From positions 52,158-116,157 of IMG/VR virus record IMGVR_UViG_3300025093_000009: a stretch of DNA of 64,000 nucleotides, one strand, 5' to 3'. Made by a program: the position numbers and the translations under genes. Of the stretch, positions 42,732 through 59,348 are shown piece after piece. The notes below the pieces were generated by a model, which did not search any database, had not been told where the DNA came from, and saw nothing but the letters and a program-made list of their open reading frames with translations. The first letter of the stretch is position 1, and each line of letters opens with the position of its first letter. Source of the DNA: a virus.

Positions 42732-43133
42732 ATGAAAACATTCCTACTCACACTGATAACTCTACTAGTAACAACGGCTTTACATGGTCAATCTTGGGTT
42801 ACAGATGAGACAATAAATGATGCAATTTCTAGTCATTCTGGTTTTGATGATCATGATGAAATTGTAATTATAGAGTTCTATGCAGAATTCAATAAAGATA
42901 ACGCATTTAAAGACAGAGAAAAACTATCCGGTGTAACATATTATATGTGTGATGTAGCACAGGCACCACAATCTAAAAAACAATATAAAATAAGAATGGC
43001 ACCAACCATTCTTGTATTTTTAGACGGGTCTGTTGTATTGCAATACAAAGCAGGACTAGACTTACAGTGTCCAGTTACTTTAGCTGAGCTAGAAAAAAGC
43101 ATTGCTGAGGTACAAAAAGAATCTCAATTCTAA
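42732..43133 (+). CDS. secreted thioredoxin-fold protein lacking CxxC
   Basis: Signal peptide. 'IVIIEFYAEFN' replaces 'DFWAxWCxxC'. 'YKIRMAPTILVFLDG' is the cis-Pro region of the Trx fold. Confidence 0.7.
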   Translation: MKTFLLTLITLLVTTALHGQSWVTDETINDAISSHSGFDDHDEIVIIEFYAEFNKDNAFKDREKLSGVTYYMCDVAQAPQSKKQYKIRMAPTILVFLDGSVVLQYKAGLDLQCPVTLAELEKSIAEVQKESQF

Positions 43134-44369: not shown

Positions 44370-44556
44370 CTGCATAATAAATTGAGTCTTTGTATCTCCA
44401 TCTTTCTCTTTCATCATTAATAGAATCTTGAATAGTATATATATGCATACTATCATCAATTATCTCCCAATGTAAAACATTAGGATCATTATCCGGGTGA
44501 TACTTAGCTTTACAACCTAGGCAAAGCAAAAGTAAAAATAAAAATTTAACCTTCAC
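44356..44556 (-). CDS. small predicted lipoprotein
   Basis: MKVKFLFLLLLCLG|C lipobox, coupled to the end of nrdA. Confidence 0.55.
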   Translation of the reverse strand: MKVKFLFLLLLCLGCKAKYHPDNDPNVLHWEIIDDSMHIYTIQDSINDERERWRYKDSIYYADEDL

Positions 44557-46171
44557 AACTTGAACATTCTAATATATTTCTAGCAAAGTCTTGAGCACTA
44601 CTCTTACTAAATTGATAGTACAAAGTTTTCACGCCCTCTTCCCATGCATACAAATATAATTGATTAATATGCTTAGCAGATACAGATGGATCAATCATTA
44701 AGTTAAGTGACTGTGACTGATCAATATACTTTTGTCTCTGTGCTGCTTGTAATACAATCTCTTTTGGAGAGATCTCAACAAAAGATTTAAATACAGCTTT
44801 AGTAGGAAAGTCTAAATGTTGAACACTACCATCTTTACTTAGAATAGACTTCCAAGTTTTATCCGTATTTAATCCGTACTTCTCAAGTTCTGCTTCTAAG
44901 AATGGATTCTTATAAACTGTTTTAGACTTAGCAAGATCCTTGATAAAGTAATTTGACTTAATAGGTTCAATACCCATAGATACTGCACCATGGATAAATG
45001 AACTAGACTTGGTAGGAGCAATAGCCATTAGTGTAGTATTAGCATAACCCTCTCTTAAGCATGTATAGCCCCAATCATTATGAAGCTTTCTAGAAGCAAT
45101 CTCACTTCTATCTTTAAGAGTTCTAAATATTTCACTGTTTAATCCTTTAGCTTGTAGTGAGTCAAACTCAATAAGCTTTGATTGAAATAATGAATGATAT
45201 CCAAGAACACCTAATCCAATTGCTCTATGTTTTTCAGCAAAGTTATATGCTCTTTTCATACCAGGCATGGTTTCAGCTTTAATAATAAACTCATCCATTA
45301 CAGCATTTAAGAAATAAACATATGTTTCAATTGCATCTGTTTCTTTAATTTCATCCCAGTGTAATAAATTGATAGAACCAAGACAGCAGACAAAAGAGTT
45401 ATAGCTATCTGTAGGTAATTGTATTTCTGAGCAAAGATTAGATGCCGTGATCTCCATACCAAGCTCTTTATAAGGAGAGTTGTTATTTGTATTATCCTTA
45501 AACATTATATAAGGAAATCCAAACTCTGATCTACGCTGTATAATCTTAGCCCATATTTTACGCTTCTTTCTATCACCAGCTTTCATCTCTTCCATCCATG
45601 CATCAGTAACTGTAACACCATACTGTAAATTTTGTATTGGGTTTCCCTCAGTACCAATATCTAAGAACTCATCAATATCAGAGTGCTCAACTGGTAAGTA
45701 TACTGCACATGCACCACGTCTAGCTTCAGATTGTTTACATACATCTACTACAGTGTCATACATTCTAGCATAGTGTATGGGTCCATCTGCATGACCACCT
45801 GTTGATATTACACTACCTCTAGGTCTAATGTTACCTAGGTAAGCACTTGTTCCTCCACCATACTTAGACATCATACCTATCTCACGTCCTGCATTAAGTA
45901 TACTATCTAAATTATCATCTATGTTTGATCCATAGCAACTAATAGGTAAACCTTTTTGCTTACCAAAGTTAATCCAAACAGGAGTAGACAAAGAGTAAAA
46001 CCCTCTTGCCATATAATCCTCAAACTTTTCTGCAAATCCTTTTATATTCAAATACTTTTCTGCTTTTATAGCAATGTCTTTGATTCTTTGTTCTGGGGTT
46101 TCTGATATATATCCCCTTGATAAAAATGTGCGGCTGTCTTCATTCAGCCAATAGTATTTATTATATTCCAT
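44546..46171 (-). CDS. nrdA: ribonucleotide reductase class I alpha subunit (no ATP cone)
   Basis: 'ISCY', 'SNLCSEI', 'VCCLGS', 'AIAPT', 'TLYY' and C-terminal 'CSSCEG' are all present. 541 aa. Confidence 0.95.
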   Translation of the reverse strand: MEYNKYYWLNEDSRTFLSRGYISETPEQRIKDIAIKAEKYLNIKGFAEKFEDYMARGFYSLSTPVWINFGKQKGLPISCYGSNIDDNLDSILNAGREIGMMSKYGGGTSAYLGNIRPRGSVISTGGHADGPIHYARMYDTVVDVCKQSEARRGACAVYLPVEHSDIDEFLDIGTEGNPIQNLQYGVTVTDAWMEEMKAGDRKKRKIWAKIIQRRSEFGFPYIMFKDNTNNNSPYKELGMEITASNLCSEIQLPTDSYNSFVCCLGSINLLHWDEIKETDAIETYVYFLNAVMDEFIIKAETMPGMKRAYNFAEKHRAIGLGVLGYHSLFQSKLIEFDSLQAKGLNSEIFRTLKDRSEIASRKLHNDWGYTCLREGYANTTLMAIAPTKSSSFIHGAVSMGIEPIKSNYFIKDLAKSKTVYKNPFLEAELEKYGLNTDKTWKSILSKDGSVQHLDFPTKAVFKSFVEISPKEIVLQAAQRQKYIDQSQSLNLMIDPSVSAKHINQLYLYAWEEGVKTLYYQFSKSSAQDFARNILECSSCEG

Positions 46172-46182
46172 TGGTTTAGTTT

Positions 46183-47163
46183 TTAAAATAGATCATCAAC
46201 TGTGATGCTCTTACTTTTCTTATTATAGTCTATGCTTTTCTTGTAGAAGAAATCACCTTCTTTGGTACCAGTGATCTCAATATCAAACCACTCAACAGAC
46301 TGTAGCTTTTCTTTATCAACTTCAAAAATAGGATTCATACCTATTTTCTCTAGAGAGTTGTTAAATCTGTTTTTTATAAAGTTATAGATTGTCAGCTTAG
46401 GTAAAAAGTCAAGTTCACCTTGTTCAAAAATCCAATCTAATATACCACATTCAGCTCTATATGCTTTTCTACAAGCAGAATAAATCAACTCTTCAAACTC
46501 TGCATCAAACCACTCTGGGTTTTCTTTTTTAATAATATTAATAATCTCAGCACCAAAGTTACCATGTATTTCTTCTTCTTTGCTTGTAGCTTCAACAACA
46601 TTAGATATACCTTTAAGTACATTTTTATCTTTGTTAAAGCTCATCATGATTAAGAACTGACTGAATAAACTTACGTGCTCTATAAAGAGAGAAAATAGTA
46701 ATACTGATTTAGTATACATTTTATCATCTCTAGAGCGGGTACCATCTAAGTACTTCTTTAAGTACTTAATTCTGTTAGCAATTGCTGGTACCTCAACAAC
46801 ATTTTGAAACTCTTCTTCTAATCCTAAGATTCTTAATAGTCTAGCATACGCATCTTTATGTCTAACTTCAGACTCAGCAAATGTAAATCCTACATCTCCA
46901 ATCTCTGTAATTGGCATACGCTTATACAGGTCACCCCAAAAAGTTTTAACGTTTACTTCAATCTGTGCAATTGCTAGCATGGTCTTTTTAATGACATCAC
47001 GCTCTTGATCTGTTATAGTGACTTTGAAGTCTTGAATATCTTCTGTAAAATTAAATTCTGTATCTATCCAGTAAGAATGTCTGATAGCATCTTTGTATTC
47101 TAAAAGTTGAGGATATTCATAAGGTAAAATATTTGTTCTGGGTTTGAAGATGTTTTTGTTCAT
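46183..47163 (-). CDS. nrdB: ribonucleotide reductase class I beta subunit (class Id/NrdBi-like)
   Basis: Ferritin-like ligands 'AQIEVNVK', 'EVRHKDAY', 'IEHVSLFSQF', 'EEEIH'. C-terminal 'SITVDDLF'. Confidence 0.95.
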   Translation of the reverse strand: MNKNIFKPRTNILPYEYPQLLEYKDAIRHSYWIDTEFNFTEDIQDFKVTITDQERDVIKKTMLAIAQIEVNVKTFWGDLYKRMPITEIGDVGFTFAESEVRHKDAYARLLRILGLEEEFQNVVEVPAIANRIKYLKKYLDGTRSRDDKMYTKSVLLFSLFIEHVSLFSQFLIMMSFNKDKNVLKGISNVVEATSKEEEIHGNFGAEIINIIKKENPEWFDAEFEELIYSACRKAYRAECGILDWIFEQGELDFLPKLTIYNFIKNRFNNSLEKIGMNPIFEVDKEKLQSVEWFDIEITGTKEGDFFYKKSIDYNKKSKSITVDDLF

Positions 47164-57180: not shown

Positions 57181-57255
57181 TTAATCATTAAGATTATTGT
57201 GTTCTGAAATGTAAAAAAAGAGAATAGCAAAAAATAATACTAAGAGTATCTTCAC
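57181..57255 (-). CDS. 24-aa hydrophobic micro-peptide (not in ORF track)
   Basis: GTG overlapping the DUF932 TGA (GTGA), giving MKILLVLFFAILFFYISEHNNLND. Confidence 0.4.
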   Translation of the reverse strand: MKILLVLFFAILFFYISEHNNLND

Positions 57256-58169
57256 AATTCTTCAGTAAATACATTTTCAATCAACTGCGTATCTAGTGAT
57301 ACTTCTTCATGAGGAATCTCCTCAATAACATCTACCTCAATAAATGTTGGCTCAACTGTTTTAGTTTCAACAGTCTCTGCAGGCTCCTCAACGGTTTGTT
57401 GAGTTTCTACAGAAGAAGCGCTACTATTAGATAAACAATCTGACACAATAAAGTCATGAAAGTTTTGACTATCCTGTAACCAATTCTTTGGATGCGCTTT
57501 CTTCAATGCATGCGTAACATGATTGTAAAAGGCCCAACAGTTATCTTGATCTACACCATAATAATAAGATGGTTTATTAAGCTCTGCTTTCACCATAGTC
57601 ATTTGTTGTGTATCAAGAACTTCTTCTTCAATAAAAAGTCTACCCGCCAGCTCAGCTTGTTGTTTTTGTGTTAACTCACAAGCTTTCATAGCATCACGGT
57701 CTTTTATAATGCGTGCATAGTATTTCTCTGCATTCTTAATTTGATCAGCAATGTGTAGAGAAACTTCTACATTTGCAGCTCCTGTATGCTTACGCTTCCA
57801 GTTCATCATGTCACCGGCAACCATACCGTTATGACATACTCTTACATATGCACCAATAGCACATTGAAAACGTGTGCTCTTGTCATATGAATTTGTCCAT
57901 GCAAACATCATCCCTAACTCATGTTCTTTAGTAATCATATCATTTTTAGTTCTACTTGGGTAGATGTGATAGATACCTTGGGCAACATTTGCATTCATAC
58001 TAGCTCTATAGATTTCTCTTTGAATTGTAAATCCACTCTTCTTCAATAAAGCTAAAGTGTTGTCAATCACTGTTTTATGTGTGACAACTGTATAACTTTT
58101 ACCATGATTTGGTAAAGGTGCTTGTTCTAAATAGGACCTTGTGGTCTCTTTTGGTTTTGAATATCCCAT
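57252..58169 (-). CDS. DUF932-family protein
   Basis: 'SYTVVTH', 'NSYDKS..FQCAIGAYVRVCHNGM', 'WAFYNHVTHALK'. Confidence 0.75.
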   Translation of the reverse strand: MGYSKPKETTRSYLEQAPLPNHGKSYTVVTHKTVIDNTLALLKKSGFTIQREIYRASMNANVAQGIYHIYPSRTKNDMITKEHELGMMFAWTNSYDKSTRFQCAIGAYVRVCHNGMVAGDMMNWKRKHTGAANVEVSLHIADQIKNAEKYYARIIKDRDAMKACELTQKQQAELAGRLFIEEEVLDTQQMTMVKAELNKPSYYYGVDQDNCWAFYNHVTHALKKAHPKNWLQDSQNFHDFIVSDCLSNSSASSVETQQTVEEPAETVETKTVEPTFIEVDVIEEIPHEEVSLDTQLIENVFTEEL

Positions 58170-58219: not shown

Positions 58220-59053
58220 TTAAAATATATATCTTATTGTATTTAACGGGAAATATTTCTTATATATTCCCTTGAATTCATTCAGTAGTCTACTTTTGTG
58301 CTCTAGAGGATATCTCATAACACCTGATTGGTTCTTAACTTCATAAGAACGTCTCATCAACTCCTGGGCTTCTGGTGAAGCTTTAGCCATTTGATTTTTA
58401 TGATTTGTTAAGGCTATAACCTCACATTTTATGTCTTCATGTAAGGCTTTAACCTGACTAAACAAGTCATCATACTCTTCTTTCCATCCTGGATAGAATA
58501 CTAATGGACTATAATTAAGGTGCACTTCCCATCCCAACTCTTTGAGCCGATTAATATCAGCTATACGGCTCACTATCTTCTGCATCTTTGGTTCTAATAT
58601 ATTAGAATACTTCTGAGGCATAAGACTTACACGTACCCGTGGTGGTTTATTAAAGTGATTTACATCTAACTTCAACAATCCCGGATACTTGGTGGCCATA
58701 GTTGTATTAAGTTGAGGGTGATCATCATACCGTTTAAGATATTTAATCAAAGGCTCTGGCATATGCTTTTGCATCAGAACTAAATCTGAGTTACATGCAA
58801 TATCTACCATAGTATATATAGGGTCCTGCTGATCAGGTTCCTTATAATAGGTTTTTTCCCAATCAACTACAGACTGAAAGATCTGATCAACGTTTTCATT
58901 TACAAAAACTCTTTTACCATTATACCTAGACATATAACAATAGGTATCTACACAGCCACCAAAGCAACCATAGATTAAATTAGGAGCTATGCAGTTAGCG
59001 CTATTATTATTTGGTTTAGTAACAAGAGTTTTAGTCTTCTGAATCTTAATCAT
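58220..59053 (-). CDS. spore photoproduct lyase-like radical SAM enzyme
   Basis: 'GCFGGCVDTYCYM' cluster motif and 'DIACNSD', equivalent to SplB 'EAACTSD' with the H-donor Cys. Also 'RVRVSLMPQ..S..LEP'. Confidence 0.8.
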   Translation of the reverse strand: MIKIQKTKTLVTKPNNNSANCIAPNLIYGCFGGCVDTYCYMSRYNGKRVFVNENVDQIFQSVVDWEKTYYKEPDQQDPIYTMVDIACNSDLVLMQKHMPEPLIKYLKRYDDHPQLNTTMATKYPGLLKLDVNHFNKPPRVRVSLMPQKYSNILEPKMQKIVSRIADINRLKELGWEVHLNYSPLVFYPGWKEEYDDLFSQVKALHEDIKCEVIALTNHKNQMAKASPEAQELMRRSYEVKNQSGVMRYPLEHKSRLLNEFKGIYKKYFPLNTIRYIF

Positions 59054-59348
59054 CCTTTACGAACTGACCATTAACCATCTTACCTGTACGTTTTGCTATA
59101 ACATTATAAGCTGACTCAAGACAATCTTCTAGTTTGAGGCCTTGCATCTTAGCTTGAATGATCAGGGTAACCATAATATCACCCATAGCATCAATAATCT
59201 CTGCACGGTCATCACTATTGATAGCCGTGCAAAGTTCTGTTGTTTCTTCTAAAGTCTTCAGTGCCTGGGCCATAGGTGTGGCTTTAGCAAGAATACCCTT
59301 TTCTTCTGCCCAATGTTCAACTGCGCATTCTAATTCAAAATAATCCAT
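59046..59348 (-). CDS. MazG-like NTP pyrophosphohydrolase
   Basis: 'KTLEETTEL...EIIDAMGDIMVTL...AYNVIAKRTGKMVNGQFVK'. Confidence 0.85.
   Translation of the reverse strand: MDYFELECAVEHWAEEKGILAKATPMAQALKTLEETTELCTAINSDDRAEIIDAMGDIMVTLIIQAKMQGLKLEDCLESAYNVIAKRTGKMVNGQFVKDD

What the first reader, a model, noticed from the sequence alone, without database searches (positions are those of the whole stretch)
58220..59053. Spore photoproduct lyase-like radical SAM enzyme in a phage, with atypical Cx3Cx4C motif
Seen: C-FGG-C-VDTY-C-Y (58937-58966) has two extra residues relative to canonical Cx3Cx2C. The flanking tyrosines and 'ACNSD' (SplB Cys141 equivalent, ~58794) are retained. Established: SplB repairs 5-thyminyl-5,6-dihydrothymine, a UV lesion formed in dehydrated or SASP-bound DNA. 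Inference: densely packed AT-rich virion DNA, possibly coated by the small basic peptides above, may form spore photoproduct in sunlight, and the phage repairs it after injection. Alternatively, its coupling to MazG, PolB and DUF5664 points to a thymine-modification role.
Basis: partly seen in the sequence, partly recalled or inferred. Interest (0 to 1): 0.7.

Follow-up and report, generated by a model that had tools for sequence, protein, structure and literature searches.

The report
Short phage photoproduct-lyase homologue, odd motif
A marine crAss-like phage carries a shortened, strongly conserved relative of the iron-sulfur enzyme that repairs UV-damaged spore DNA; it keeps the catalytic and thymine-binding residues but has an unreported metal-binding spacing, so it most likely gives the phage light-independent repair of a thymine photoproduct.

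Summary
ORF 58220-59053 (-) encodes a 277-aa protein of Pfam family SPL (E 1.3e-17). Its predicted fold matches Geobacillus spore photoproduct lyase residues 62-341 (Z 26.6, next radical SAM enzyme Z 14).

- **Motif:** C30-FGG-C34-VDTY-C39 is a real two-residue insertion. All 120 closest homologues have it, the gene is under purifying selection (pN/pS 0.16), and the insertion goes with Gly-Gly in the first spacer. On the family tree it was gained or lost at least three times.
- **Active site:** The equivalents of SPL S79, Y96, Y98, C140, K174, R193, S195, E268 and Y339 are invariant in 175 viral sequences from three clades. The first 61 residues, R273 and the Arg-Tyr hairpin tip are not kept.
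- **Family placement:** It scores below both NCBIfam equivalog cut-offs, so it belongs to an unstudied, phage-restricted short branch.
- **Against a modification role:** The genome has no thymidylate-synthase homologue, Tet/JBP, or homologue of phage M6 gp51 or gp54. M6 gp53 is only a remote relative. The MazG linkage holds in 29 of 82 related loci.
- **Recurrent neighbour:** A DUF932 gene of unknown fold.

Best reading: stand-alone, light-independent direct reversal of a spore-photoproduct-type thymine dimer (confidence 0.55). Other agents of this scan reached the same reading on related phage DNA.

The parts
58220..59053 (-). Gene for the 277-aa short SPL-family radical SAM protein
   Evidence: ORF. 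Pfam PF20903 E 1.3e-17. AF2 pLDDT 95. VIA Z 26.6 to 4fhc residues 62-341.
58937..58966 (-). Cluster motif C30-FGG-C34-VDTY-C39 (CX3CX4C); Y40 follows at 58934-58936
   Evidence: Sequence. Conserved in 120/120 close homologues.
58946..58951 (-). The two inserted codons (V35 D36) relative to CX3CX2C
   Evidence: Gap opposite these residues in alignments to 4fhc.
58793..58795 (-). Cys87, equivalent of the SPL hydrogen-donor Cys140 (in A-C-N-S-D)
   Evidence: Alignment. Invariant in 175 viral sequences.
58631..58633 (-). Arg141, equivalent of SPL Arg193 (binds O4 of the dihydrothymine)
58421..58423 (-). Glu211, equivalent of SPL Glu268 (binds the dihydrothymine)
58229..58231 (-). Tyr275, equivalent of SPL Tyr339 (binds O4/N3 of the dihydrothymine)
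59046..59348 (-). MazG-like NTP pyrophosphohydrolase whose stop overlaps the SPL start (ATGATTAA). The neighbour is facultative.
   Evidence: Directly upstream in 29 of 82 related loci.
57252..58169 (-). DUF932 gene, the most recurrent co-oriented neighbour of short SPL genes. Function unknown; whether it belongs to the system is uncertain.
   Evidence: Pfam DUF932 E 2e-17. Neighbour in 46/68, 28/54 and 4/10 loci of three SPL clades. No fold match.

Best explanation
The gene encodes a minimal, stand-alone member of the spore photoproduct lyase family. The proposed mechanism has four steps.
1. Three cysteines (C30, C34, C39) hold a [4Fe-4S] cluster despite the two-residue insertion.
2. The reduced cluster cleaves S-adenosylmethionine, and the 5'-deoxyadenosyl radical abstracts H from C6 of a 5,6-dihydrothymine moiety held by R141, E211 and Y275.
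3. The methylene bridge to the neighbouring thymine breaks.
4. Cys87 gives an H atom to the thymine allyl radical, and Y40/Y38 pass the radical back.
The enzyme is made early, from the phage replication module, and uses host SAM and host reductants. It would reverse spore-photoproduct-type thymine dimers in the injected or replicating phage genome without light.

Shown here: family, fold, conservation of the cluster, SAM-binding, radical-relay and thymine-binding residues, purifying selection, phage restriction, and independence from fixed neighbours. Inferred: cluster binding with this spacing, SAM cleavage, the identity of the lesion, and that the lesion forms in sunlit virions.
For: - **Family and fold:** Pfam SPL 64 bits against GA 27. 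A profile of the family hits 4fhc at E 4.6e-34 over nearly its full length. The AF2 model has pLDDT 95. Foldseek TMq is 0.81 and E 1e-15 to SPL, with the next hit at E 5e-4. VIA gives Z 26.6, rmsd 2.4 A over 263 residues, against Z 14 for other radical SAM enzymes.
- **Active site:** The functional residues named in the SPL structure paper (PMC3467042) map to S18, C30/34/39, Y38, Y40, C87, K122, R141, S143, E211 and Y275. All are invariant in 175 viral sequences of three clades that are only 33-45% identical.
- **Selection:** pN/pS 0.16 over 61 gene pairs.
- **Autonomy:** The gene occurs in several different phage neighbourhoods as a single unit.
- **Cellular relatives:** They sit in UV- and desiccation-tolerant non-sporeformers such as Methylobacterium, Rubrobacter, Geodermatophilus, Kocuria, Curtobacterium and Trueperaceae. 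One is UVC-induced in Curtobacterium (PMC12029717).
- **No other UV repair gene:** No photolyase or denV was found in the genome.
Against: - No biochemical data exist for any member of this branch.
- The CX3CX4C spacing was not found in a literature search for radical SAM enzymes, so cluster binding is assumed.
- The N-terminal 61 residues, R273 and the R304/Y305 hairpin tip proposed for lesion flipping are not kept.
- The score is far below the SplB and TIGR03886 equivalog cut-offs.
- SP is known from dry, A-form or SASP-bound DNA, and has not been shown in hydrated phage heads.
- TT is not avoided in the genome (odds ratio 0.98).
- Some family members have lost the cluster cysteines or the fourth Cys, so functions in the family may differ.
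Confidence: 0.55

Rival explanations
1. It is a DNA base-tailoring enzyme, like the radical SAM glycinyl-thymine isomerase gp53 of Pseudomonas phage M6. It would act on a thymine-derived hypermodified base during or after replication.
For: - M6 gp53 is an SPL-fold radical SAM enzyme that installs a DNA modification (PMC8989533).
- In one distant viral relative (L085) the SPL-like gene follows a GATase and an Amidoligase_2 gene. These are domains that the same paper lists in hypermodification clusters.
- Two NTP pyrophosphohydrolase-type genes (MazG, PF18909) lie nearby.
- CpG is strongly depleted, which hints at some DNA-level peculiarity.
Against: - M6 gp53 shows no BLASTP similarity to the window protein (E 0.17), only a core-level hhalign match (86%), and is not in PF20903.
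- The genome has no ThyA or ThyX homologue (so no dUMP hydroxymethylase) and no Tet/JBP, and no homologue of M6 gp51 or gp54.
- Pfam scans of the replication module found only replication and repair proteins.
- The gene moves between neighbourhoods alone.
- The SPL H-donor Cys and the Tyr relay, which serve a repair-type net-neutral reaction, are invariant.
Confidence: 0.15
2. It is an active radical SAM repair enzyme, but for a different lesion than classical 5R-SP. Candidates are another methylene-bridged or dihydropyrimidine adduct, an intrastrand cross-link, or a DNA-protein cross-link formed in packed virion DNA.
For: - The lesion-flipping hairpin tip (R304/Y305), R273 and the N-terminal domain differ from SPL.
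- The branch is distinct from both curated equivalogs.
- SP is not known to form in hydrated B-DNA (PMC3231322).
Against: All residues that contact the two thymine rings in the SPL-SP complex, and the S79 loop, are kept. This argues for a very similar substrate.
Confidence: 0.15
3. The SPL-like protein works together with the neighbouring DUF932 protein in a two-gene system of unknown purpose, for example counter-defence or processing of DNA at injection. It would not be a simple repair enzyme.
For: A DUF932 gene is the commonest co-oriented neighbour across three SPL clades: 46/68, 28/54 and 4/10 loci with enough flank. DUF932 has no recognisable fold relative (best Z 5.8).
Against: - A third to a half of the loci lack it.
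- Both genes sit in a replication module shared by these phages, with DnaB, SNF2 helicase, AAA_24 and DUF2201, so inherited synteny can explain the adjacency.
- Cellular SPL-family genes have no such partner.
Confidence: 0.1
4. The two-residue insertion has disabled cluster binding, and the protein has a non-radical role such as lesion binding only.
For: The spacing is non-canonical. Three family representatives have lost the first two cysteines altogether (P0151, P0159, P0187).
Against: - The three Cys, the aromatic residue before Cys3, and the SAM-binding K122/S143 are invariant.
- The insertion co-occurs with Gly-Gly in the first spacer (10 of 14 against 1 of 50 representatives), which looks like a compensated loop.
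- The gene is under strong purifying selection.
Confidence: 0.05

Closest known systems
Spore photoproduct lyase SplB/SPL (Geobacillus thermodenitrificans, PDB 4FHC/4FHD/4FHF; Bacillus subtilis SplB; NCBIfam TIGR04070)
   Same: Same Pfam family and fold (Z 26.6). Three cluster cysteines, Tyr96/Tyr98 relay, H-donor Cys140, SAM ligands K174/S195, and thymine ligands R193/E268/Y339 with the S79 loop are all kept.
   Different: [quoted passage not shown] CX3CX4C instead of CX3CX2C. R273 and the R304/Y305 hairpin tip are not kept. About 22% identity. 63.7 bits against the 400-bit equivalog cut-off. Encoded by a phage of a non-sporulating host.
NCBIfam TIGR03886 'spore photoproduct lyase family protein' of non-sporulating bacteria (Methylobacterium, Curtobacterium, Rubrobacter and others)
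   Same: Best-scoring curated model (150.9 bits, E 4.8e-44). A stand-alone gene outside any sporulation context. One member is UVC-induced (PMC12029717).
   Different: Cellular members are about 350 aa with the N-terminal domain, canonical C-A-M-A-C-A-Y-C, and Glu at the Cys140 position with a Cys three residues later. The phage protein is far below the 437-bit cut-off and lies in a different part of the tree.
Pseudomonas phage M6 gp53, radical SAM N-alpha-glycinylthymine isomerase (PMC8989533)
   Same: A phage-encoded, SPL-fold radical SAM enzyme that acts on thymine-derived bases in DNA.
   Different: 480 aa, canonical CTVGCAFC, not in PF20903, and no pairwise similarity (E 0.17). It sits in a cluster with a kinase, aGPT-Pplase and PLP enzyme that this genome lacks.

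Membership tests
Pfam SPL (PF20903) | Score above the gathering threshold | tested here: met
   64.2 bits against 27, model positions 65-337 of 338.
SplB proper (TIGR04070 equivalog) | Score above the curated cut-off (400 bits) | tested here: not met
   63.7 bits.
TIGR03886 SPL-family protein (equivalog) | Score above the curated cut-off (437.55 bits) | tested here: not met
   150.9 bits, model positions 61-346 only.
Radical SAM / SPL | CX3CX2C cluster motif | tested here: not met
   The spacing is CX3CX4C. All three Cys and the aromatic residue before Cys3 are present.
SPL | Fourth conserved Cys (H-atom donor, Cys140/141) | tested here: met
   C87 aligns with C140 and is invariant in 175 viral sequences.
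SPL | Tyr96/Tyr98 radical relay | tested here: met
   Y38 and Y40 are invariant.
SPL | Dihydrothymine-binding Arg193, Glu268, Tyr339 and the Ser79 loop | tested here: met
   R141, E211, Y275 and S18 are invariant.
SPL | SAM-binding Lys174 and Ser195 | tested here: met
   K122 and S143.
SPL | N-terminal alpha/beta domain (four strands, three helices) | tested here: not met
   The model aligns to SPL residues 62-341 only. Only the last two strands remain.
SPL | Beta-hairpin with an Arg304/Tyr305 tip, plus phosphate ligands Arg273 and Lys309 | tested here: inconclusive
   A hairpin is predicted at residues 239-247, but its tip is N-Q-S-G. R273 aligns with T216. The invariant R247-Y248 lies near K309.
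SPL | [4Fe-4S] binding, SAM cleavage and cleavage of 5R-SP | not testable with these tools
   Needs biochemistry.
M6 gp53-type thymidine hypermodification radical SAM | Similarity to gp53 and co-occurrence with 5-hmdU kinase, aGPT-Pplase and a 5-hmU source | tested here: not met
   BLASTP E 0.17. No gp51, gp54, ThyA, ThyX or Tet/JBP homologues in the genome.

The most novel reading that the evidence does not exclude
Sunlit, densely packed virion DNA accumulates a spore-photoproduct-type thymine dimer. A large, phage-restricted branch of minimal SPL enzymes repairs it in the dark after injection. Part of that branch uses a CX3CX4C loop, a spacing not found in my literature search for radical SAM enzymes, to hold the [4Fe-4S] cluster. 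These enzymes would be a widespread but unrecognised auxiliary repair function of marine phages, possibly working with the DUF932 neighbour.
Probability: 0.35. Interest if true: 0.75.

Novelty: new variant of a known kind. Interest (0 to 1): 0.55.

Why it matters
Solar UV is a main cause of virus decay in surface waters, and phage survival is thought to depend on host photoreactivation or excision repair. A phage-borne, light-independent radical SAM direct-reversal enzyme would be a new class of viral repair gene. It would also imply that a 'spore-type' lesion forms in virions, which nobody seems to have measured.

For enzymology, a naturally selected CX3CX4C site, with close CX3CX2C relatives at 47% identity, is a ready-made test of how much the radical SAM cluster loop can stretch. 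A 277-aa SPL lacking the N-terminal domain defines the minimal catalytic unit.

No deposited phage genome in INPHARED carries a close relative, so the family is known only from metagenomes.

Tried and rejected
- I used the search for related loci instead.
- **Scans that failed or found nothing:** The 44-sequence alignment was too diverse for the search for related loci. P0123 and P0149 gave no viral loci.
- **Cultured phages:** tblastn of four family members against 50,697 phage records gave nothing except one weak hit in an unannotated faecal contig.
- **PHROGs:** no family for the protein.
- **Thymine hypermodification:** rejected as the main reading for lack of pathway genes and lack of similarity to M6 gp53.
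- **Obligatory MazG-SPL pair:** rejected; MazG is directly upstream in 29 of 82 loci.
- **SASP-like basic peptides:** the three small basic ORFs match no Pfam family, so this is unsupported but not excluded.
- **Cellular TIGR03886 neighbourhoods:** no conserved repair partner.
- **DUF932 fold:** no meaningful match in PDB by Foldseek or VIA-wide, and the Atlas returned only DUF932 clusters.
- **TT avoidance as a UV signature:** absent.
- **Host from bacterial genomes:** only 5 MAG contigs with contradictory taxonomy, apparently misbinned phage contigs.

Full report
**Observation.** The minus-strand ORF 58220..59053 encodes 277 aa. The sequence reads ...Y-G-C30-F-G-G-C34-V-D-T-Y38-C39-Y40..., with C30 to C39 at 58937-58966, and ...D-I-A-C87-N-S-D... 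around 58793. So the CX3CX4C spacing, the two tyrosines and the ACNSD cysteine are all present at the stated places. The start codon overlaps the stop of a 100-aa MazG-like gene by 8 nt. A family B DNA polymerase lies upstream. A DUF932 gene, an 85-aa ORF and a PF18909 (former DUF5664) gene lie downstream.

**Family and fold.** Pfam assigns the protein to SPL (PF20903, E 1.3e-17, 64 bits against a cut-off of 27), but only to model positions 65-337. NCBIfam gives 150.9 bits to TIGR03886 ('SPL family protein', cut-off 437.55) and 63.7 bits to TIGR04070 (SplB, cut-off 400), both far below the equivalog thresholds. PHROGs has no family for it. An AlphaFold2 model built on 44 family members is confident (pLDDT 95, pTM 0.92). 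Foldseek ranks the six Geobacillus SPL entries first (E about 1e-15, TMq 0.81), and the next radical SAM enzymes follow at E 5e-4. VIA-align gives Z 26.6, rmsd 2.4 A over 263 residues, with model 1-277 on SPL 62-341. PFL-activase and RlmN follow at Z 14. [quoted passage not shown]

**Active site.** I used the profile alignment to 4fhc and the residue roles given in the structure paper to map each functional residue.

| Role in SPL | SPL residue(s) | Phage residue(s) | Kept? |
|---|---|---|---|
| Cluster cysteines | C90, C94, C97 | C30, C34, C39 | yes |
| Radical relay | Y96, Y98 | Y38, Y40 | yes |
| Loop holding the 3'-thymine | S79 | S18 | yes |
| H-atom donor | C140 | C87 | yes |
| SAM ligands | K174, S195 | K122, S143 | yes |
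| Dihydrothymine ligands | R193, E268, Y339 | R141, E211, Y275 | yes |
| Phosphate and SAM contact | R273 | aligns with T216 | no |
| Hairpin tip | R304, Y305 | N-Q-S-G | no |

In 175 viral sequences from three clades that are only 33-45% identical to one another, every one of the kept positions is invariant. Conservation of the thymine-contacting residues and of the Cys/Tyr relay, and not just the radical SAM core, is the strongest argument that the substrate is an SP-like thymine dimer.

**The CX3CX4C motif.** All 120 closest homologues (82-96% identity) have C-x-G-G-C-[VI]-x-[ST]-Y-C. Among 50%-identity representatives the family is mostly canonical CX3CX2C. There are also 13-14 CX3CX4C members, one or two CX3CX3C members, and rare expansions of the first spacer. 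Three members lack the first two cysteines. On a maximum-likelihood tree the query lies in a supported 22-row clade (SH-aLRT 96) that mixes CX3CX4C and CX3CX2C. Well-supported branches force at least three changes of state, so the insertion was gained or lost repeatedly. The insertion goes with Gly-Gly in the first spacer (10 of 14 CX3CX4C representatives against 1 of 50 canonical ones), and the aromatic residue before Cys3 is always kept. The gene is under purifying selection (median pN 0.099, pS 0.62, ratio 0.16). A text search found no paper pairing 'CX3CX4C' with radical SAM. Cluster binding is thus likely but unproven.

**Genome and host.** The window is the second half of a 116,157-bp IMG/VR virus record rated complete. 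Its major capsid protein matches the crAss-virus capsid family (E 4e-30). The minus-strand replication module continues across the record ends and holds primase, DnaB, an SNF2-type helicase, UDG, RusA, AAA_24 and a MoxR-vWA-peptidase set. The genome also encodes aerobic class I ribonucleotide reductase. GC content is about 33%. Homologues come largely from ocean metagenomes, including Tara. Close relatives occur in only five MAG contigs of about 100 kb with mutually contradictory taxonomy, which are evidently misbinned phage genomes. None of four family members tested finds a real match in 50,697 deposited phage genomes. The branch is therefore phage-restricted and uncultured.

**Context.** Among 82 related viral loci, MazG lies directly upstream in 29. 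PolB abuts the gene without MazG in 18. In at least 14 loci the gene (still 76-82% identical) sits among unrelated neighbours. A second, very abundant clade (over 500 stretches in IMG/VR, canonical motif) and a third clade lie among the same kinds of replication genes: SNF2 helicase, DnaB, AAA_24 and DUF2201. The only neighbour that recurs across all three clades is DUF932, always co-oriented and usually just downstream. It is present in 46/68, 28/54 and 4/10 loci with enough flank. The DUF932 model (pLDDT 83.5) has no convincing structural relative; the best Z is 5.8. The adjacency may reflect function or merely inherited synteny.

**Test of the modification hypothesis.** Three results weigh against it:
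- gp53 shows no pairwise similarity to the window protein (E 0.17). It matches the family profile only over the radical SAM core (hhalign 86%) and is not in PF20903.
- The phage genome has no ThyA or ThyX homologue, no Tet/JBP, no second radical SAM gene, and no homologue of M6 gp51 or gp54.
- The Pfam scans found no PLP-dependent, kinase or transferase candidate.

One distant relative (L085) does follow a GATase-amidoligase pair, and one representative is fused to DUF4326. The modification reading therefore stays open for parts of the family.

**Support from cellular relatives.** The full-length TIGR03886-type proteins occur in Methylobacterium, Rubrobacter, Geodermatophilus, Modestobacter, Kocuria, Curtobacterium, Trueperaceae, Microvirga and Leptolyngbya. 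These taxa are known, from general knowledge, for tolerance of UV and drying. In Curtobacterium aetherium the gene is induced by UVC, and the authors link it to SP formed in desiccated A-form DNA (PMC12029717). Their neighbourhoods show no conserved partner, consistent with a stand-alone enzyme.

**Verdict.** The best-supported mechanism is light-independent, radical SAM direct reversal of an SP-type thymine dimer by a minimal phage SPL (confidence about 0.55). The protein is a member of the Pfam family but not of either curated equivalog.

Follow-up agents of this scan reached essentially the same reading on related phage genomes. My additions are:
- the repeated gain and loss of the insertion on the family tree;
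- the correlation of the insertion with Gly-Gly in the first spacer;
- the explicit negative tests for the M6-type pathway;
- the recurrent DUF932 neighbour.

Noticed in passing
window 1-64000: CpG is strongly depleted (symmetrised odds ratio 0.23) while all other dinucleotides lie between 0.94 and 1.19. This may reflect avoidance of CG-containing restriction sites or a methylation/deamination history.
   Followed up: no
window 57252-58169 (-): The DUF932 protein is the commonest neighbour of short SPL genes in three divergent clades. It has a confident model (residues 1-250) with no structural relative in PDB (best Z 5.8) and an acidic, disordered tail.
   Followed up: partly
P0151, P0159, P0187 (family representatives): Three full-length short SPL-like proteins have lost the first two cluster cysteines (N-N-L-V...T-H-N-C-Y) while keeping most other family motifs. 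They may be non-radical derivatives.
   Followed up: no
P0161 (451 aa): An N-terminal DUF4326 domain is fused to a short SPL-like domain. Others predict DUF4326 to be a rhodanese-phosphatase-like domain linking ADP-ribose systems with replication and R-M components (PMC9503650, PMC7824862).
   Followed up: partly
L085:3285-5835: A class II glutamine amidotransferase and an Amidoligase_2 gene lie directly upstream of a canonical-motif SPL-like gene in a viral contig, followed by DUF932 and DnaB.
   Followed up: no
window 44546-47163 (-) and 42732-43133 (+): Class I ribonucleotide reductase large and small subunits sit as a minus-strand island among plus-strand virion genes, with a thioredoxin-like ORF nearby.
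   Followed up: no
window 1958-40754 (+): A run of very large ORFs (2052, 1358, 907, 977, 1095, 4567 and 1925 aa), as expected for crAss-like virion cargo or RNA-polymerase proteins.
   Followed up: no
L265-L269 (genome contigs): Near-identical phage contigs of 100-115 kb are filed in MAGs labelled Pseudomonadales, Flavobacteriales, Campylobacteraceae, Sphingomonadaceae and Clostridium. This is likely binning contamination by phage genomes.
   Followed up: no
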